Positions 195 through 8,665 of a stretch of DNA of 9,409 nt are shown one piece after another. The DNA lies in the UHGV virus genome UHGV-0216968. One strand, 5' to 3'. This stretch comes from a virus. A model generated the notes under the pieces. The model searched no databases. It was not told where the DNA came from and was given only the letters and a program-made list of their open reading frames with translations. Made by a program: the position numbers and the translations under genes. How positions within the stretch are numbered: position 1 is the stretch's first letter; each line of letters starts with the position of its first letter.

Positions 195-271
195 CGGCAC
201 GTAGCGCAGCCTGGTAGCGCACCGTCATGGGGTGTCGGGGGTCGGAGGTTCAAATCCTCTCGTGCCGACCA
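195..271 (+). tRNA. proL: tRNA-Pro (anticodon GGG)
   Basis: 77-nt cloverleaf: acceptor stem CGGCACG/CGTGCCG, D arm GCGC-AGCCTGGTA-GCGC, anticodon loop ATGGGGT, T arm GGAGG-TTCAAAT-CCTCT, encoded 3' CCA. Matches enterobacterial tRNA-Pro2 as I recall it. Confidence 0.85.
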
Positions 272-2221: not shown

Positions 2222-2428
2222 GTGGAAACAATCAGAAAAATACTTACCCGTCAGGAAGTAAAAAATATTCTGCGCATCAAGGCAGACAGTTCGCTACAGG
2301 ACATGATCAACGCCGGAAAATTCCCGAAAGGCTTCAAAATCGGTCTGCGTCGTGTTGGCTGGTATGAAGATGAAGTGCTGGCCTGGCTGAAAGAGCGCGA
2401 GGAAGAAGCGCGCGGAACGGCTGCGTAA
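2222..2428 (+). CDS. alpA: AlpA-family (MerR-like HTH) regulator/excisionase-like protein, 68 aa
   Basis: GTG start at 2222 with GAGG at 2208-2211. Translation METIRKILTRQEVKNILRIKADSSLQDMINAGKFPKGFKIGLRRVGWYEDEVLAWL has the characteristic AlpA pattern (R-VGW-E-EV-AWL). Position directly after int is typical for Gram-negative PICI/P4-like islands. Confidence 0.85.
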   Translation: METIRKILTRQEVKNILRIKADSSLQDMINAGKFPKGFKIGLRRVGWYEDEVLAWLKEREEEARGTAA

Positions 2429-2578
2429 TGGTGTGAGGCGTAACGCGATGAACATAACAAAAAGCGCCCCGTTGCCGGAGCGCCCTTGCGAACAATTAAC
2501 CTGCTGCGAAAAAAATGGATCAGTGCAGGGGAATTATATCAACCGTGTGGCGAAGCGCCACAATTGCCGGATAACGGG

Positions 2579-2607
2579 CAAAACAAAGGCGACCGGGGGC
2601 GGTCGCC
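2579..2607 (-). terminator. rho-independent terminator on the minus strand
   Basis: Perfect 8-bp inverted repeat GGCGACCG-ggg-CGGTCGCC (2588-2607). On the minus strand it is followed by UUUGUUUUG (plus-strand 2579-2587). Lies about 68 bp downstream of the minus-strand small ORF. Confidence 0.45.
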
Positions 2608-2674
2608 AATGGATATACACTAAACTTGAACGCATCACCAACAATGCCACATTTGCGGCTGGTGGGCAATGTGA

Positions 2675-2854
2675 TCAGTCAGATTTGGTTCGTTCCAAGG
2701 TTTGCAACGAGAGCTTTTTCCTGTGCTCTTTAAGGAATTTCTCAAGAGCAAACGAACAAGGTGCGAATCTTTCTGATTCATGTTCATGCGCTATATTTTT
2801 GCGTCGTCTCTTACGAGTTGGCGATGGTGTTTTGGTTGATTCTGTGTCGCTCAT
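2675..2854 (-). CDS. hypothetical small basic protein, 59 aa (MSDTESTKTPSPTRKRRRKNIAHEHESERFAPCSFALEKFLKEHRKKLSLQTLERTKSD)
   Basis: Hand-translated minus-strand ORF, below the size cut-off of the supplied ORF track. ATG at 2854-2852 with AGGA 7 nt upstream, TGA at 2677-2675. Sits 57 bp downstream of the RHH gene on the same strand and before a minus-strand terminator. No family recognised. Confidence 0.3.
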   Translation of the reverse strand: MSDTESTKTPSPTRKRRRKNIAHEHESERFAPCSFALEKFLKEHRKKLSLQTLERTKSD

Positions 2855-2911
2855 GGTGCTGTCCTGTAAAGCAATGCGCCTGCGTTCCTCAAACTATGGC
2901 GCTGATAGTGG

Positions 2912-3217
2912 CTATTCCTGCTCTTTGACCTTGCGTCGCTGGAGTTCTTCACGCGCGACGGTGACGAGTTGCCCGATCTCCTCGGCGGCTTTGACTCCGA
3001 TTTTTTCCACCTGCGCTAGGGCATCGAGCGAAGAAACCAGGAGGTTTTCTCCGCTTCCTTCTGCCTGGCGGCGGGCGATTTCACCGCGCATGGCGGTTAC
3101 TATGAATCCGGCGTTGCTTTCACCGTCCAGTTTTACGGATTCCATGCCTTCAATAACATCATGCGGGATCCGAGCTGTCAGTGATTGTGATTTTGCGTTT
3201 TTTGAACCTGTAGCCAT
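2912..3217 (-). CDS. ribbon-helix-helix-type DNA-binding protein, candidate island regulator, 101 aa
   Basis: ATG at 3217-3215 with GAGAGG about 7 nt upstream. The ORF-track start at 3232 is a TTG that contains this Shine-Dalgarno. N-terminal SLTARIPHDVIEGMESVKL fits the strand-helix pattern of Arc/CopG/MetJ RHH domains. Transcribed divergently from the downstream operon. Confidence 0.6.
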   Translation of the reverse strand: MATGSKNAKSQSLTARIPHDVIEGMESVKLDGESNAGFIVTAMRGEIARRQAEGSGENLLVSSLDALAQVEKIGVKAAEEIGQLVTVAREELQRRKVKEQE

Positions 3218-3238
3218 CTGTAATCCTCTCAATGAAAG

Positions 3239-3315
3239 TGTAAGACAATATACACATAAAAAGTCTTACATAAAAGCATTGACATGTAAGCCACCTATAA
3301 ATAAAGTTACTTACA
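3239..3315. promoter_or_regulatory. divergent promoter/operator region
   Basis: Rightward promoter TTGACA (3279-3284), 17 bp, TAAAGT (3302-3307). Leftward -10 candidate TATATT on the minus strand (3247-3252). Four copies of TGTAAG/CTTACA (3239-3244, 3265-3270, 3285-3290, 3310-3315) including the inverted repeat TGTAAGAC (3239-3246) / GTCTTACA (3263-3270). Hairpin CACCTTG-ttaatg-CAAGGTG at 3314-3333 in the rightward leader. Confidence 0.45.
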
Positions 3316-3413
3316 CCTTGTTAATGCAAGGTGCAGAAACGACGAAACCCCGCACTGTAGGAGCAGTAACGGGGCTTCTAACCACCAACGATAGCAAGAT
3401 TATCGAGGTAGCT

Positions 3414-3620
3414 ATGTTAAATCATACCACACACCCGCAAGGGCGGGACTCGCACAACCTGAATAAATACATCTGGCGTTTTATCGCCCTGAGCACGGCA
3501 CAACCGCGCGTGATTCACATCGTGGCCACCAGCGAACAGGAAGCCCGTCAACAATCACCGGCTGGCTGCGTGATGGTATTCGCCGCCCGTATTCGTCAGG
3601 AGGTGCACCATGTGCAATAA
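3414..3620 (+). CDS. hypothetical small protein, 68 aa
   Basis: ATG at 3414 with GAGG at 3405-3408. It is the C-terminal part of the implausible 395-aa track ORF. First gene after the rightward promoter and its stop overlaps the next start. Product unknown. Confidence 0.4.
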   Translation: MLNHTTHPQGRDSHNLNKYIWRFIALSTAQPRVIHIVATSEQEARQQSPAGCVMVFAARIRQEVHHVQ

Positions 3621-3846
3621 CACCTGTCCGGACGCAGCCGCCGAAGCTATCAAAACACTGATTGATGCGCTGATTGATATTTCTGTTATCGCGGACAGGG
3701 CGCATAAGCACGCTACCAGTGAAACAGAATATGCCGGGGCTTTCGTTCCTCACTCACTGGCTGTTATGCAATTTAGTGCTGATATGGCGCTGAATGAGGC
3801 AGGCAAAATTCTTACCGCAGATATTCAGGGGGCGCACCATGCATGA
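3610..3846 (+). CDS. hypothetical protein, 78 aa
   Basis: ATG at 3610 preceded by AGGAGG (3597-3602). Start overlaps the upstream stop (ATGTGCAATAA), indicating translational coupling. Confidence 0.5.
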   Translation: MCNNTCPDAAAEAIKTLIDALIDISVIADRAHKHATSETEYAGAFVPHSLAVMQFSADMALNEAGKILTADIQGAHHA

Positions 3847-4066
3847 TGACCGTTATTTTAAATCAATGAGCCATGCAGAAAATGCGCTGACTAACAGTGA
3901 ATGCTTGCGGCAAATATTGCTTATCTGGCTTGATGGTTTAAGTGATGCGCCGGAAGATGAACGTGAATCTAATCTTGCTGGTGCGTTTATTTCATTACTC
4001 GACACAGTAATCGTCGAATTAAATAAAGCGATCGAAATTCACGATAAAAAAATAAACGCGGAATAA
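3839..4066 (+). CDS. hypothetical protein, 75 aa
   Basis: ATG at 3839 with AGGGGG at 3825-3830, overlapping the upstream stop (ATGCATGA). The track ORF starts at an in-frame ATG at 3794 that has no Shine-Dalgarno and a 53-nt overlap. Confidence 0.45.
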   Translation: MHDDRYFKSMSHAENALTNSECLRQILLIWLDGLSDAPEDERESNLAGAFISLLDTVIVELNKAIEIHDKKINAE

Positions 4067-4071
4067 AAACC

Positions 4072-4371
4072 ATGAAACAGAAAATTTCTGGCTTTACTGC
4101 CAGCGGCCTCCCTCGGCCTGAAATCTGCCCCGGCGATATTTACCGGGATAAATACGGCAGCACGGTAATGATTAAAGGTGTTGCCGGACGGTGCGTTACT
4201 TACCGCCGTGAAGGTTATGAATATGACTGCGTGATGCCTGTTTATCAGTTCCGGCGTGATTTTTCTCTGGTACAGAACGCAACACGCGGTAAGCCCACCA
4301 GTTGGGAAAAAGCACGGGAAAATATTAAGAAAATAAAAAGCATGCTCAGCGCATCCAGAGGTAAAAAATGA
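4072..4371 (+). CDS. hypothetical protein, 99 aa
   Basis: ATG at 4072. Its stop overlaps the start of the replication gene (ATGA at 4368-4371). Basic C-terminus. No recognisable family. Confidence 0.5.
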   Translation: MKQKISGFTASGLPRPEICPGDIYRDKYGSTVMIKGVAGRCVTYRREGYEYDCVMPVYQFRRDFSLVQNATRGKPTSWEKARENIKKIKSMLSASRGKK

Positions 4372-5774
4372 AACTGGCACCGAACGTAAAACTGTTACCG
4401 AAAGATAAACACACTGAGGCGGTTATTTTTGCGGGTGATAATGCTCACTCCTTTGCAGAACATTACATGATTGCACAGGCCAAAAAAGCAGGCGATCCCA
4501 TCCCTCCGGTTTACCTGGGCCGTTATCAGTTAAGCGAACTGGACAATTTACAGATTGTTGATGAAGGACGATACAGAGCAAAGGTCATACGCGCCGGAAA
4601 CCTGGACGATATGCAGATGCTGACCATTGCCACCAAACTGGCGATCGCAGGTGTCCGGGAAGCGCGGTTACTTTCAGAGAATTTCGAACTACTGGAAGAC
4701 TGGAGCGAGCAACTACCGCGCCTTAAAGAAACCTGGGAACGTGGGGAAAGCCTGGTCATGAATGGTGGAAAGCGAAAAATCACACTTCCCATCTCATGGG
4801 GTTCTGAGGGATTCGACGCGCAGCAAAGCTACGTAATTAAGGGGCTTATTCCGGCTGAATCATTATGCAGCACCTACGGGGCCAGCGGCTCTTATAAATC
4901 GTTCCTGGCTATTTCCTGGTCGTGCCATGTTGCCACAGGTATGGCATGGGGAGGCCGCAGGGTCAGTAAGGGCGCGGTTATCTATATAGCTGGTGAAGGC
5001 AGCATGGGCGTAAAACGCCGCGTTAAGGCGTGGGAGATAACCCACGACAAGGTGGTTACAGATTTGTGCATCATTAACGCGCCTGTTTTCCCTGCATCGC
5101 CTGACTATGTGGAGCAGGTTATCAGAACTGCCGGACTTGTTAAGAGCAGAACGGGCGAAAATGTGCGGCTGATTGTGATAGACACGCTGGCCCGTTGCTT
5201 TGGTGGGAATGATGAAAATGATTCCCGTGATATGGGCGCATTTATCCAGGGGTGTGACGCGATAAAGCAGGCCACAGGGGCCACGGTGCTGGTGGTTCAC
5301 CATTCCGGCAAGGATGAAACAAAGGGGGCGCGTGGTTCCAGCGCATTCCGTGCCGCACTGGATGCAGAGTACCGAATCAGCCGGGAAAATTCAGACGTTA
5401 CAGCACTGGTGGCGGCGTGTACGAAGATGAAGGACGCAGAGGAGCCAAAAGAAAGCGCATACGACCTTAAAAGCGTGGAGGTGTTTACCGATACAGATGG
5501 CGAAGAGATTGTGTCCATGGTGGTGATTGACGTTCCCCGCGCCCCTGCTGAACTGGAACGCATCGAGGAGGCCGGGAACAAGACGGAAAATCACACGGCT
5601 TTATGGGGTTGTATCCGGTCACGTATACAGCATGGTGATAAATGCACGATCCCGCTGCTACGTGATGACATGAAAAAGCTGGGATATGACACAAAACACC
5701 TTAAACGATGGTTAGCCAAACTGGAAAAAGACGGCGTGATTTGCGTCGATGGGGATGATGTTCACCCACTGTAA
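4368..5774 (+). CDS. replication protein: RecA-superfamily RepA/DnaB-like ATPase, 468 aa
   Basis: ATG at 4368 with AGAGG at 4357-4361. Contains a P-loop-like YGASGSYKS, Walker B-like RLIVIDTL and a VLVVHHSGKD motif characteristic of RepA-type replicative helicases. The C-terminal ~60 aa look like a small DNA-binding domain. Iterons follow immediately downstream. Confidence 0.85.
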   Translation: MKLAPNVKLLPKDKHTEAVIFAGDNAHSFAEHYMIAQAKKAGDPIPPVYLGRYQLSELDNLQIVDEGRYRAKVIRAGNLDDMQMLTIATKLAIAGVREARLLSENFELLEDWSEQLPRLKETWERGESLVMNGGKRKITLPISWGSEGFDAQQSYVIKGLIPAESLCSTYGASGSYKSFLAISWSCHVATGMAWGGRRVSKGAVIYIAGEGSMGVKRRVKAWEITHDKVVTDLCIINAPVFPASPDYVEQVIRTAGLVKSRTGENVRLIVIDTLARCFGGNDENDSRDMGAFIQGCDAIKQATGATVLVVHHSGKDETKGARGSSAFRAALDAEYRISRENSDVTALVAACTKMKDAEEPKESAYDLKSVEVFTDTDGEEIVSMVVIDVPRAPAELERIEEAGNKTENHTALWGCIRSRIQHGDKCTIPLLRDDMKKLGYDTKHLKRWLAKLEKDGVICVDGDDVHPL

Positions 5775-8320: not shown

Positions 8321-8665
8321 ATGATTGAAAGAGATAGTCAGCTACGAGAGCTATTAGATATCGATGATAAAATGCGCTTAAGCGAGCGTCTTGTCGATAT
8401 GGATCAGGTAGTGGAGCTTACAACCCTTAGCCGTCGCACATTGCTAAACCTTGAGGCTCGCGGAGAGTTCCCCGAACGCGTACAGGTTACGAAAGGCCGC
8501 AAGGCATGGTATTTAAGCGAAGTTGTTGCGTGGATTAACAACATTCCGCGCGCATCAAATTATTGCCTTGTTCCCACCCCCGAAAAACCTGATGCGGCGT
8601 TATGCCTCAAGATTGAACGCGCCAGGCGTAATGCCCTGAAAGGGCGCAATAAGTTGATTGGTTGA
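8321..8665 (+). CDS. second AlpA/excisionase-like HTH protein, 114 aa
   Basis: GAGGT at 8311-8315 precedes the ATG. Central region VVELTTLSRRTLLNLEARGEFPERVQVTKGRKAWYLSEVVAWI is a MerR/AlpA-type HTH. Stop lies 26 bp before the cosQ-like sequence. Confidence 0.7.
   Translation: MIERDSQLRELLDIDDKMRLSERLVDMDQVVELTTLSRRTLLNLEARGEFPERVQVTKGRKAWYLSEVVAWINNIPRASNYCLVPTPEKPDAALCLKIERARRNALKGRNKLIG

What the first reader, a model, noticed from the sequence alone, without database searches (positions are those of the whole stretch)
3414..4371. Operon of four small, translationally coupled ORFs of unknown function feeding into the replication gene
Four consecutive ORFs of 68-99 aa have overlapping stop/start codons (ATGTGCAATAA, ATGCATGA, ATGA) and good Shine-Dalgarno sequences, so they are likely real and co-expressed with rep. 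Small early genes at this position in satellites often encode helper-sensing, helper-interference or host-takeover functions. I recognise none of them.
Basis: inference. Interest (0 to 1): 0.45.

Follow-up and report, generated by a model that had tools for sequence, protein, structure and literature searches.

The report
Satellite early operon: Kil/Icd to RgdR
The four small genes are real and form the conserved start of the replication operon of an E. coli phage satellite; two belong to known families (the Icd/Kil cell-division inhibitor and the RgdR regulator), so this is a member of a known system, not a new one.

Summary
Observation confirmed. ORF1 3414-3620, ORF2 3610-3846, ORF3 3839-4066 and ORF4 4072-4371 tile the + strand, with 11-, 8- and 4-nt overlaps and one 5-nt gap, and run into a RepA-type helicase gene. 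All four show dN/dS below 1. The Icd-first, DUF4222-last layout recurs in 59 related loci, and parts of the region match 1868 of 5426 E. coli genomes.

Two of the four are recognisable. ORF1 is an Icd/Kil-family protein, related to P1 Icd and the C-terminus of P4 Eta. ORF4 is an RgdR-family DUF4222 protein, 69% identical to the copy I take to be in O157 island OI-51.

ORF2 and ORF3 are acidic, found only in Escherichia, and belong to a shuffling cassette of one to five small ORFs. Their function remains unknown.

The layout parallels the phage P4 left operon (vis, eta/kil, epsilon, orf151, cnr, alpha). ORF1's frame stays open for 341 codons upstream, to just past alpA. It crosses a promoter-like site and runs antisense through a YlcI/YnfO gene, like P4 eta with kil nested inside it. 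Unlike P4, there is no CI/C4 RNA.

Verdict: a new member of a known kind, of modest interest. The stop-free frame antisense to ylcI is the most interesting side observation.

The parts
2222..2428 (+). alpA (AlpA/Vis-family regulator), the gene just upstream of the long frame that ends in ORF1
   Evidence: Pfam Phage_AlpA 4.5e-08. P4 ORF88 (vis) hits the same family. AlpA activates the EcCICFT073 cycle (PMC6092414).
2433..3620 (+). Eta-like stop-free frame of 395 codons. Candidate starts are GTG 2433, or ATG 2448 with GAGG 9 nt upstream. ORF1 is its last 68 codons.
   Evidence: One search lists this ORF. The frame has 0 stops from 2433 to 3413, against 21 and 19 in the other two frames; 2000 shuffles gave a mean of 13.3 and a minimum of 3. 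The same holds in about 29 non-redundant related loci. No Pfam domain was found. In the + frame, dN/dS is 0.69 and 0.81 in the segments not overlapped by minus-strand ORFs.
2912..3232 (-). YlcI/YnfO-family gene, divergent from the ORF1 promoter and antisense to the Eta-like frame. Candidate repressor (inference).
   Evidence: NCBIfam YlcI_YnfO_N 5.5e-20 and phrog_6522 1.5e-57. It is annotated in RefSeq homologues. In 53 of 56 loci its phase places its third codon positions on those of the + frame. Repeats in the intergenic region change with the YlcI allele.
3279..3307 (+). Sigma-70 promoter-like site, TTGACA-17-TAAAGT, inside the Eta-like frame and 107 nt upstream of ORF1
   Evidence: It is the only promoter-like hit between 2400 and 6300. 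The -35 and -10 positions keep promoter-like hexamers in diverged alleles. This is a consensus match only; no transcription start was mapped.
3314..3409 (+). Structured leader with three hairpins (3314-3333, 3344-3378, 3384-3409). The third contains the ORF1 Shine-Dalgarno site.
   Evidence: RNA fold gives -33.7 kcal/mol, z = -3.6, with 0 of 200 shuffles folding as well. The middle hairpin occurs in 16 sequence variants that all fold the same way, with changes on both sides of both stems. No Rfam family matches.
3414..3620 (+). ORF1: Icd/Kil-family small protein, 68 aa, pI 10.0, first cistron of the operon
3610..3846 (+). ORF2: acidic 78-aa protein (pI 5.0), here called family B, part of the variable cassette
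   Evidence: phrog_5146 and phrog_2512, both of unknown function. 209 clusters of homologues; all those named are Escherichia. No hit in Pfam, PADLOC, PDB or the phage genome collection. dN/dS 0.19-0.51. It is fused to neighbouring families in some loci.
3839..4066 (+). ORF3: acidic 75-aa protein (pI 4.6, GC 38%), here called family D, always the ORF just before DUF4222 when present
   Evidence: phrog_2196, unknown function. Only 8 close clusters. The diverged D2 and D3 alleles align with it. dN/dS 0.22-0.63. No PDB match. The only match in the phage collection is the 16.5-kb satellite-like record vB_KppS-Ant.
4072..4371 (+). ORF4: RgdR-family DUF4222 protein, 99 aa, pI 10.0, with PGD instead of RGD at residues 20-22
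4368..5774 (+). rep: RepA-type helicase, the gene the operon feeds into
   Evidence: Pfam AAA_25 7.4e-43 and phrog_2850 8e-186. RefSeq names the homologue 'helicase RepA family protein'.

Best explanation
The stretch is the promoter-proximal half of the early, replication operon of an Escherichia PICI-type phage satellite. The satellite sits next to tRNA-Pro(GGG). Its layout parallels the phage P4 left operon: vis(alpA), eta/kil, epsilon, orf151, cnr, alpha.

Shown here:
- ORF1 is an Icd/Kil-family protein with its own conserved Shine-Dalgarno site.
- A promoter-like site lies 107 nt upstream of ORF1.
- ORF1's frame is also open all the way back to alpA.
- Each cistron's stop overlaps or abuts the next start, up to the replicase gene.
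- ORF4 is an RgdR-family protein with a small barrel of the Tudor/KOW kind and a basic helix.
- ORF2 and ORF3 are two members of a cassette of small acidic proteins that shuffles between elements independently of the replicase type.

Inferred:
- In the quiescent island, the divergent YlcI/YnfO protein keeps the internal promoter low.
- When a helper phage switches on alpA, ribosomes translate the stop-free frame from alpA into ORF1. In P4, translation of eta in this way protects the transcript from premature termination.
- Ribosomes are then handed from ORF1 to ORF2, ORF3, ORF4 and rep, so replicase synthesis depends on translation of ORF1. P1 shows the same dependence: the P1 record annotates icd as apparently required for ant expression.
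- ORF1 arrests host division or growth.
- ORF4 acts as a nucleic-acid- or RNA-polymerase-binding cofactor of island transcription or replication. Its published effects on LEE and motility would then be cross-talk.
- ORF2 and ORF3 are accessory effectors aimed at the helper or the host.
For: Gene reality and coupling.

Icd/Kil identity of ORF1. The P1 record annotates icd as overlapping ant1 and 'apparently required for expression of ant'.

Eta-like frame:
- The frame has 0 stops between alpA and ORF1 over intervals of 514 to 2219 nt in about 29 non-redundant loci (a few have one stop), against 10-49 stops in the other two frames.
- P4 eta likewise starts within the 3' end of vis and ends in an Icd-like domain.
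- PMC10111431 (section 20) summarises Forti et al. [quoted passage not shown]
- In the + frame, dN/dS is 0.69-0.81 in the non-overlapped segments against 0.35 in the Icd part. The upstream frame therefore looks translated but not constrained as a protein.

RgdR identity and fold of ORF4; PMC3378721.

Conserved architecture: Icd first and DUF4222 last, in the same orientation, with 1-5 small ORFs between, in 59 of 59 loci that hold both.

Variable cassette: the window's pattern (family B then family D) occurs with all three replicase classes.

Satellite specificity: none of the four ORFs matches any of 50,697 phage records except the satellite-like vB_KppS-Ant.

Growth arrest: a six-gene prophage locus in ECOR61 with an N-terminally extended Icd-like gene and a DNA primase causes cell death or growth arrest when a phage gene is expressed, and needs the Icd-like gene (bioRxiv 10.1101/2023.04.06.535777).
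Against: - No expression data were available. The promoter is only a consensus match, and no transcription start, Rho dependence or translation of the long frame was measured.
- The P4-type immunity RNAs (Rfam C4 and isrK) are absent, although the models do detect them in P4 and in six related elements. The termination that the long frame would have to overcome is therefore not identified here.
- ORF2, ORF3 and ORF4 show no sequence relation to P4 epsilon or Cnr. ORF4 alone was compared with Cnr, ORF2 and ORF3 alone with epsilon, and orf151 with none of them. The parallel with P4 is positional only.
- ORF1 and P4 Eta align only weakly as a pair (E 0.066).
- The related loci were collected through a conserved leader 14-mer and are not phylogenetically independent.
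- YlcI as a repressor rests on gene position and on repeats that change with its allele. It has no Pfam or PDB support.
Confidence: 0.62

Rival explanations
1. The operon is mainly a phage-triggered growth-arrest (abortive infection or superinfection exclusion) module. A helper or invading phage protein switches it on, ORF1 (Icd-like) is the toxic effector, and the other small proteins and the replicase are needed for full toxicity.
For: Silas et al. (bioRxiv 10.1101/2023.04.06.535777) describe a six-gene prophage locus in ECOR61. [quoted passage not shown] It stops growth when phage orf24 is expressed, and removing the Icd-like gene abolishes the effect. The gene content matches this architecture. 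AlpA-driven runaway replication of EcCICFT073 also reduces viability (PMC6092414).
Against: No PADLOC defence model matches any of the proteins. I could not show that the ECOR61 locus is the same element type. The arrangement is equally what a satellite needs for its own induction and replication, so growth arrest may be a by-product. This rival does not exclude the best explanation.
Confidence: 0.3
2. ORF2, ORF3 and ORF4 are replication accessory factors for the downstream replicase, such as copy-number control or origin or loader functions, like Cnr just upstream of alpha in P4.
For: ORF4 always lies directly upstream of the replicase, with an ATGA overlap in 44 of 55 operons. P4 cnr holds a similar position: it ends 14 nt upstream of alpha. 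That Cnr regulates P4 replication through alpha is from my own knowledge. Purified RgdR binds DNA without sequence specificity (PMC3378721).
Against: ORF4 is not related to Cnr: Cnr is DUF5375, BLASTP gives E 0.62 and hhalign gives probability 0.1%. The same DUF4222 family, and the same B-then-D cassette, are coupled to three different replicase classes of about 470, 580-610 and 710 aa. That argues against a partner-specific cofactor. vB_KppS-Ant has the Icd-like and D-like ORFs and a primase but no DUF4222.
Confidence: 0.2
3. ORF4 (RgdR) is virulence cargo: a regulator carried for the host's benefit to control type III secretion and motility. On this view the other small ORFs are unrelated fillers.
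For: RgdR from OI-51 activates LEE1, raises type III secretion, represses motility and aids colonisation of sheep (PMC3378721; PMC10877973).
Against: The family occurs in strains without LEE, including UPEC and commensals (PMC3378721). It has a fixed position, coupled to the replicase, in every related island examined. This copy has PGD rather than RGD at residues 20-22, and residue 20 affects activity; the CGD variant from the commensal ED1a was inactive on type III secretion (PMC3378721).
Confidence: 0.12
4. Some or all of the four ORFs are chance open frames, or only spacers for coupling whose protein products do not matter.
For: ORF2 and ORF3 have no known domain and a narrow taxonomic range. 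The cassette turns over quickly. The frame upstream of ORF1 shows that a stop-free but unconstrained frame does exist in this element.
Against: dN/dS is below 1 for all four. Each belongs to a family with many alleles. Shuffles almost never give this tiling. Fusions between neighbouring cassette ORFs keep both protein sequences.
Confidence: 0.04

Closest known systems
Phage P4 left operon: vis (ORF88/AlpA family), eta with nested kil, epsilon, orf151, cnr, alpha
   Same: - An AlpA-family gene is followed by a long frame that ends in an Icd-like domain.
- A promoter lies inside that frame, and the short form is nested in the same frame (PMC10111431 for P4; here).
- Several small cistrons with 8-nt stop/start overlaps follow, and the operon ends with the replicase.
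- Both elements are satellites of temperate phages.
   Different: - No CI/C4 or isrK (seqA) RNA is present (against the positive control), and there is no Ash domain.
- The long frame is 395 rather than 214 codons, and it runs antisense through a YlcI/YnfO gene, a second small minus-strand ORF and their terminators.
- The downstream small proteins are unrelated to epsilon and Cnr.
- The replicase is a RepA-type helicase, not the alpha primase-helicase.
Phage P1 immI operon: c4, icd, ant1/ant2
   Same: ORF1 is homologous to P1 Icd, and both match NF033153. In both, the Icd gene is the first cistron and its stop overlaps the start of the next gene. The P1 record annotates icd as apparently required for ant expression.
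   Different: P1 controls icd translation with the C4 antisense RNA; no such RNA was found here. In P1 the downstream gene is an antirepressor, not a cassette plus a replicase. P1 is a phage, not a satellite.
Early region of the E. coli PICIs EcCICFT073 and O157 O-island 51 (CP-933C), including RgdR
   Same: The gene order is the same: int, alpA, (YlcI), Icd-like, small ORFs, DUF4222/RgdR, replicase, SSB, lambda-type capsid genes. ORF4 is 69% identical to the copy in the O157 island I take to be OI-51. RgdR is reported in all E. coli PICIs analysed in PMC6092414.
   Different: - The integration site differs: tRNA-Pro next to yejM, not the roxA/pepT region.
- This is the minimal form of the cassette, with only families B and D.
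- Residues 20-22 of ORF4 are PGD, not RGD.
ECOR61 prophage-encoded six-gene cell-death locus (Silas et al. 2023 preprint)
   Same: [quoted passage not shown] The Icd-like gene is needed for toxicity.
   Different: Here the replicase is a helicase type, and no trigger is known.

Membership tests
Icd/Kil family (NCBIfam NF033153 phage_ICD_like) | Match to the 48-residue Icd-like domain above the curated cut-off | tested here: met
   ORF1 scores 71.1 bits against a cut-off of 25, E 5.6e-20. P1 Icd and the P4 Eta C-terminus match the same model.
Icd/Kil family (NCBIfam NF033153 phage_ICD_like) | Direct similarity to the founding member, P1 Icd | tested here: met
   BLASTP gives 37% identity over 43 aa, E 6e-7.
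Icd/Kil family (NCBIfam NF033153 phage_ICD_like) | Inhibits host cell division or kills the host when expressed | not testable with these tools
P4-type eta/kil nested-gene control region | A long frame that starts at the 3' end of, or just after, the AlpA/Vis gene and ends in the Kil (Icd-like) part | tested here: met
   The frame is open from 2391. Candidate starts are GTG 2433 and ATG 2448, and alpA stops at 2428. There are 0 stops in this frame against 21 and 19 in the others. The same holds in about 29 non-redundant loci.
P4-type eta/kil nested-gene control region | A constitutive promoter inside the long frame, upstream of the nested short form | tested here: inconclusive
   TTGACA-17-TAAAGT at 3279-3307 matches 10 of 12 consensus positions. 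Promoter-like hexamers are kept in diverged alleles. No transcription start was mapped.
P4-type eta/kil nested-gene control region | Immunity RNA (CI, Rfam C4) and its target (seqA, Rfam isrK) inside the frame | tested here: not met
   No C4 or isrK hit at E up to 1 over the whole window, or up to 10 over 3230-3640. Both models hit P4 and six related loci at 60-82 bits.
P4-type eta/kil nested-gene control region | Ash/Bro-network domain in the long protein | tested here: not met
   Pfam finds no domain in the 395-aa translation. P4 Eta hits Phage_ASH.
RgdR family (Pfam DUF4222) | DUF4222 domain in a protein of about 99 aa encoded on a prophage-like island | tested here: met
   DUF4222 scores 85.2 bits against a cut-off of 27. 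ORF4 is 99 aa and 69% identical over its full length to the O157 island copy.
RgdR family (Pfam DUF4222) | RGD tripeptide at residues 20-22, which gave the family its name | tested here: not met
   ORF4 has P20-G21-D22. The O157 copy has RGD. PMC3378721 shows that residue 20 modulates activity, and that the CGD variant of strain ED1a was inactive on type III secretion.
RgdR family (Pfam DUF4222) | Activates LEE1 and type III secretion and represses motility | not testable with these tools
   This needs reporter and secretion assays.
Gram-negative PICI (phage-inducible chromosomal island) | int, alpA and replicase co-oriented, a few helper-type packaging or capsid genes, no lysis or tail genes, and integration at a specific site | tested here: met
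   The genes are int 481-1722, alpA, rep, SSB, capsid E, decoration D and a Nu1-like small terminase. The window lies next to tRNA-Pro, and the same site next to yejM is used in L006 and L007. The window ends inside the terminase gene, so the right end and the total size were not seen.
Gram-negative PICI (phage-inducible chromosomal island) | Induction and transfer by a helper phage | not testable with these tools
   This needs induction and transduction experiments.
P4 Cnr (Pfam DUF5375) | Sequence membership in DUF5375 | tested here: not met
   P4 ORF106 is DUF5375, whereas ORF4 is DUF4222. BLASTP gives E 0.62 and hhalign gives probability 0.1%.
P4 epsilon (Pfam Derepression, PF25738) | Sequence membership | tested here: not met
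   No Pfam hit for ORF2 or ORF3. Against P4 epsilon, hhalign gives a probability of 2.1% for the ORF2 family and 0.3% for the ORF3 family.

The most novel reading that the evidence does not exclude
The stop-free frame between alpA and ORF1 is a translated corridor whose amino-acid sequence does not matter. In this PICI lineage it has been laid antisense over the island's own repressor module: ylcI, a 59-codon ORF and their terminators.

On this reading, AlpA-driven transcription, protected by ribosomes, would do two things at once. It would silence the repressor by running into it head-on, and it would deliver ribosomes to Kil/Icd, the cassette, RgdR and Rep. This would be a protein-repressor version of the RNA-based P4 eta/CI switch.

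ORF2 and ORF3 would then be interchangeable effectors, aimed at the helper or the host, riding on that switch.
Probability: 0.25. Interest if true: 0.6.

Novelty: new member of a known kind. Interest (0 to 1): 0.33.

Why it matters
Parts of this region match a third of the complete E. coli genomes searched (1868 of 5426). It includes RgdR, a regulator that affects type III secretion and colonisation by O157, whose role in the island itself is unknown.

Placing the four ORFs in the P4 and P1 framework turns "four unknown genes" into specific experiments. That framework has a Kil/Icd leader cistron, a read-through frame from alpA, and ribosome hand-over to the replicase. The experiments would address how Gram-negative PICIs are switched on, a question PMC6092414 left open because no repressor had been identified.

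It also offers an explanation for the N-terminally extended Icd-like "proteins" among the database cluster representatives. They may be read-through frames of this kind, not folded domains.

The variable acidic cassette is a reasonable place to look for factors that act between satellite and helper, or between satellite and host.

Tried and rejected
- Solved structures by sequence: nothing significant for ORF1, ORF4, YlcI or the ORF2 and ORF3 family profiles.
- Defence-system models (PADLOC): no hit; the best was E 0.034.
- Pfam on the other cassette families (A, B2, C, D2, D3, E, F, G): nothing above noise.
- Profile comparisons: no relation between ORF2 and ORF3, between either of them and P4 epsilon, or between ORF4 and P4 Cnr. 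I therefore dropped the idea that ORF4 is a Cnr homologue and kept only the positional analogy.
- Fold search for ORF4 against viral models: only DUF1653 and unnamed small proteins. The afdb50 library was unavailable.
- A C4/CI-like immunity RNA in the leader: rejected, with a working positive control.
- The scan of genome contigs with the DUF4222 alignment used exact peptide patterns that were too strict and returned only two loci, so taxonomic breadth outside Escherichia and Shigella was not established.
- RNAalifold on the MAFFT alignment of leaders recovered only part of the middle hairpin, because the inner stem is out of register between variants. I folded each variant on its own instead.
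- The long frame as a pure antisense by-product of ylcI: insufficient. About 160 of its codons lie outside the minus-strand ORFs, and the frame stays open through indels and different gene content.
- Forti et al. 1999 (PMC94026) is not held in the library, so I cite it through PMC10111431.
Full report
**Context.** The window is a phage satellite of the Gram-negative PICI type.
- tRNA-Pro(GGG) lies at 195-271.
- Then come a tyrosine integrase (481-1722), a small ORF and alpA (2222-2428).
- A YlcI/YnfO-family gene lies on the minus strand (2912-3232).
- On the plus strand follow the four ORFs of the finding, a RepA-type AAA_25 helicase (4368-5774), a phrog_1231 ORF and SSB.
- The late genes are lambda-type: capsid protein E, decoration protein D, a second AlpA-family gene and a Nu1-like small terminase.
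- RefSeq E. coli genomes carry related islands at the same site, downstream of yejM and tRNA-Pro, and at other sites such as roxA/pepT.

ORF1 is 3414-3620 (68 aa), ORF2 3610-3846 (78 aa), ORF3 3839-4066 (75 aa) and ORF4 4072-4371 (99 aa).
- The overlaps ATGTGCAATAA, ATGCATGA and ATGA are exactly as quoted. ORF3 and ORF4 are separated by 5 nt and do not overlap.
- ORF1, ORF2, ORF3 and rep have good Shine-Dalgarno sites 5-6 nt upstream. ORF4 has only a weak one, so it probably depends on re-initiation after ORF3 (read; inference).
- The four ORFs cover 99.5% of the stretch. Only 0.05% of 2000 dinucleotide shuffles reach 90% coverage.
- No + strand terminator-like site lies inside the stretch.
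- Pairwise dN/dS against eight annotated E. coli loci is 0.13-0.63 for all four ORFs. They are protein-coding genes under purifying selection.

**Distribution and architecture.**
- Megablast finds parts of 3233-4400 in 1868 of 5426 complete E. coli genomes, but only 10 genomes match over at least 80% of it. The region is mosaic.
- I examined 59 loci that contain both an Icd-like and a DUF4222 hit: 8 RefSeq regions, 2 species genomes and IMG/VR contigs. The IMG/VR contigs were retrieved with a conserved 14-mer from the leader.
- In all 59, the two genes are co-oriented, with Icd first and DUF4222 last. They are 218-1257 nt apart, and the gap holds one to five tightly packed small ORFs.
- Among 55 distinct operons, the Icd stop overlaps the next start by 4, 8 or 11 nt in 54.
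- The DUF4222 stop overlaps the replicase start as ATGA in 44. The replicase falls into three size classes: about 470 aa (RepA helicase), 580-610 aa (DNA primase family) and 710 aa (DUF927).
- None of the four proteins matches any of 50,697 deposited phage genomes. The one exception is vB_KppS-Ant, a 16.5-kb "induced prophage" with the same layout, which is evidently a satellite. The module belongs to satellites, not to helper phages.

**ORF1.**
- It matches NCBIfam phage_ICD_like (E 5.6e-20) and aligns with P1 Icd (37% over 43 aa, E 6e-7).
- In P1, icd is the first cistron of the immI operon and overlaps ant1. The record annotates it as an inhibitor of cell division that is apparently required for ant expression.
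- The same domain closes the P4 eta ORF: residues 161-208 of 214, E 1.4e-20. [quoted passage not shown] ORF1 is therefore a member of the Icd/Kil family.
- The AlphaFold2 model has a strand-strand-helix-strand core at pLDDT about 90. It has no informative structural neighbour.
- An alignment of short family members shows that the N-terminus (M-x-N-H-T-T-H-P-Q-G-R) is conserved from the ATG at 3414. The C-terminal E-V-x-H motif is the Shine-Dalgarno site and start codon of the next gene read in ORF1's frame. The coupling signal is conserved across the family.

**ORF1 is nested in a longer frame.**
- Its frame is open for 341 codons upstream, back to position 2391. The first candidate starts are GTG 2433 and ATG 2448, the latter with GAGG 9 nt upstream. 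alpA stops at 2428.
- Between 2433 and 3413 this frame has no stop codon, against 21 and 19 in the other two frames. Shuffles gave a mean of 13.3 stops and never fewer than 3.
- Among 56 non-redundant upstream regions, about 29 have zero stops (a few have one) in this frame across the whole interval from alpA to icd, against 10-49 in the other frames. The interval ranges from 514 to 2219 nt. In nine of them only the alpA stop codon separates the two frames.
- In five loci a different frame is the open one, and it ends just before icd.
- A full HMMER search gives the same picture: many Icd-like cluster representatives are "proteins" of 200-644 aa with the domain at the extreme C-terminus. Their N-terminal parts are rich in Cys, Ser and Arg, and have no Pfam domain except, in some, Ash.
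- In the window the frame runs antisense through ylcI, a 59-codon minus-strand ORF (2675-2854), two minus-strand terminator-like hairpins (2460-2487 and 2588-2607) and the divergent promoter region.
- ylcI lies in the phase that puts its third codon positions on those of the + frame in 53 of 56 loci. The three exceptions are loci where the open frame is not fused to icd.
- In the + frame, dN/dS is 0.31-0.36 where it overlaps the minus-strand ORFs and 0.35 in the Icd part. It is 0.69 and 0.81 in the two non-overlapped segments. That is close to neutral at the amino-acid level, yet the frame has no stops.
- This is the arrangement described for P4. PMC10111431 (section 20) summarises Forti et al. 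[quoted passage not shown]
- The window also has a promoter-like site inside the frame, TTGACA-17-TAAAGT at 3279-3307. It is the only hit between 2400 and 6300, and promoter-like hexamers are retained in diverged alleles.
- The difference from P4 is the immunity module. Rfam C4 (CI RNA) and isrK (seqA) are absent here. They are found in P4 and in six related elements that carry an Ash domain and a second Icd copy. The window has the divergent YlcI/YnfO gene instead.
- Inverted and direct repeats flank the -35 and -10 hexamers: GTAAGAC/GTCTTAC in the window, GTGTTYAACAC in L002, GTGGGCCACAC in L008 and GTATATCAC in L010. They change with the YlcI allele. I read them as operators of a YlcI-type repressor. 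This is inference; YlcI has no Pfam or PDB support.

**Leader.** From the predicted start near 3314 to the ATG, the RNA folds into three hairpins (-33.7 kcal/mol, z = -3.6).
- The middle hairpin occurs in 16 sequence variants that all fold alike, with changes on both sides of both stems. Examples are CCCCG/CGGGG against CCCGG/CCGGG, and ACUG/CAGU against AGUG/CACU or GGUG/CACC.
- It is followed by a conserved tail, GGGCUUCUAACCA. All but a handful of the loci were retrieved through a 14-mer within this tail, so its conservation is largely by construction; it is independently seen only in the eight RefSeq loci found by megablast and two species genomes.
- The third hairpin contains the ORF1 Shine-Dalgarno site. 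The function of the leader is unknown.

**ORF4.**
- It is a Pfam DUF4222 protein and is 69% identical over all 99 residues to the copy in an O157:H7 island. That island lies between roxA and pepT and carries a PerC-family gene, so I take it to be OI-51 (CP-933C).
- The DUF4222 protein of OI-51 is RgdR (ECs1581). It activates LEE1 and type III secretion, represses motility and binds DNA without sequence specificity. Its orthologues occur in strains without LEE (PMC3378721, PMC10877973). [quoted passage not shown]
- The window copy has PGD, not RGD, at residues 20-22.
- AlphaFold2 (49 sequences, mean pLDDT 76, core about 90) predicts a five-strand barrel (residues 23-68) followed by a basic C-terminal helix (77-96).
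- This places the fold but does not show function. Binding to RNA polymerase or nucleic acid is a lead only.
- The same family is coupled to three replicase classes, so a replicase-specific role is unlikely. It has no relation to P4 Cnr, which holds a similar position just upstream of the replicase gene.

**ORF2 and ORF3.**
- Both are acidic (pI 5.0 and 4.6).
- They have only PHROG families of unknown function and Escherichia-only relatives in a search of 5.8 billion proteins: 209 and 8 clusters.
- They have no Pfam, PADLOC or PDB match and no profile relation to each other or to P4 epsilon.
- Across loci, the space between Icd and DUF4222 holds combinations of at least seven families, which I call A, B, C, D, E, F and G. 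ORF2 belongs to B and ORF3 to D.
- Neighbouring families are sometimes fused in frame (A+B, B+C, F+A). Family D is always the one next to DUF4222 when present.
- The window's pattern, B then D, is the most common multi-ORF pattern (8 of 59 loci). It occurs with all three replicase classes.
- The N-terminus of ORF3 (MHDDRYF) resembles the start of family C, and the rest is family D. This suggests a deletion that removed C (inference).
- Fast turnover, independent assortment and acidity fit accessory effectors aimed at the helper or host better than core replication factors. No function was established.

**Mechanism and verdict.** The best-supported reading is a P4- and P1-style coupled operon.
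- Kil/Icd is the leader cistron. It can be reached from an internal promoter or by ribosomes reading through from alpA.
- Ribosomes are then handed through a variable cassette and RgdR into the replicase.
- Growth arrest by the Icd-like protein, and by runaway replication, is consistent with the ECOR61 locus of Silas et al. and with the toxicity of AlpA-driven EcCICFT073 replication (PMC6092414).
- Transcription starts, translation of the long frame, dependence on Rho, toxicity of ORF1 and the roles of ORF2, ORF3 and ORF4 are all untested here.

The finding is a new member of a known kind. The most interesting feature lies just outside the given coordinates: the eta-like stop-free frame laid antisense over a protein-repressor module.

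**Caveats.**
- The related loci are not phylogenetically independent, and many were selected through a leader motif.
- The dN/dS values are pairwise Nei-Gojobori estimates on short genes.
- Both AlphaFold2 models rest on shallow alignments.

Noticed in passing
window 2433-3620 (+): A 395-codon stop-free frame runs from just after alpA to the end of ORF1, antisense to ylcI, a 59-codon ORF and two terminator-like hairpins. It has 0 stops against 21 and 19 in the other frames. The same feature appears in most related loci, and it may account for the Icd-like cluster representatives annotated at 200-644 aa. I read it as the counterpart of P4 eta with kil nested inside.
   Followed up: yes
window 3235-3319: Repeats (TGTAAGAC/GTCTTACA, CTTACAT/ATGTAAG, CTTACACCTT) flank the -35 and -10 hexamers of the internal promoter. 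Other YlcI alleles have different repeats at the same places: L002 GTGTTYAACAC, L008 GTGGGCCACAC, L010 GTATATCAC. These are possibly operators of a YlcI/YnfO-type repressor, which would be a candidate for the repressor of Gram-negative PICIs that had not been identified.
   Followed up: partly
window 3344-3378, with tail 3372-3385: A leader hairpin occurs in 16 sequence variants that all keep both stems through changes on both sides. It is followed by the conserved tail GGGCTTCTAACCAC (its conservation in most loci is by construction, since they were retrieved through it). No Rfam family matches and the function is unknown. The tail loosely resembles a boxA-like element; that is from my own recollection and was not tested.
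   Followed up: partly
window 2460-2487, 2588-2607 and 2675-2854 (all minus strand): Two terminator-like hairpins and a 59-codon basic ORF lie downstream of ylcI on the minus strand. The ORF region shows codon-periodic constraint (dN/dS 0.36 in the frame that shares its third positions), and RefSeq annotates a small minus-strand gene at the corresponding place in L007 and L008. ylcI and this ORF may form a two-gene minus-strand unit.
   Followed up: partly
window 3839-4066: ORF3 has 38% G+C, against 47-55% for ORF1, ORF2 and ORF4. Its first residues look like the start of cassette family C joined to a family D body. This suggests recent acquisition or a deletion joint.
   Followed up: no
L002 6298-6762, L009 4456-4920, L007 4379-4816: Neighbouring cassette ORFs are fused in frame in some islands: families B+C in L002 and L009, A+B in L007, and F+A elsewhere. 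This hints that the small proteins act together, or at least tolerate being tethered.
   Followed up: partly
window 4350-4375 and homologues: The joint between DUF4222 and the replicase, GGGG(T/C)AA(A/G)AAATGAAA, encodes ...RGKK* on one side and MK... on the other. It is nearly identical in front of three different replicase classes, so it is a likely recombination joint for module exchange.
   Followed up: partly
L041, L023, L082, L098, L113, L120: Related elements carry a composite region: an Icd-like N-terminal part, then isrK and C4 RNA genes, an Ash domain and a second Icd-like domain, all in one open frame. The family therefore has both an RNA-immunity version and a YlcI version of this region.
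   Followed up: partly
L010 443-2086 and 3783-4148: This island sits inside a prophage major capsid gene, the helper-embedded PICI configuration of PMC10111431. Its annotated Icd-like protein (121 aa) looks like a tandem duplication of the Icd domain.
   Followed up: no
window 8321-8665: A second AlpA-family gene (Pfam Phage_AlpA 8.7e-08) lies between the decoration-protein gene and the Nu1-like small terminase gene. It may regulate the late or packaging module.
   Followed up: no
window 195-271 and 302-399: tRNA-Pro(GGG) lies directly upstream of the integrase. The same site next to yejM is occupied in L006 and L007 by islands with different cassettes and replicases, so several island variants share this attachment site.
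   Followed up: partly
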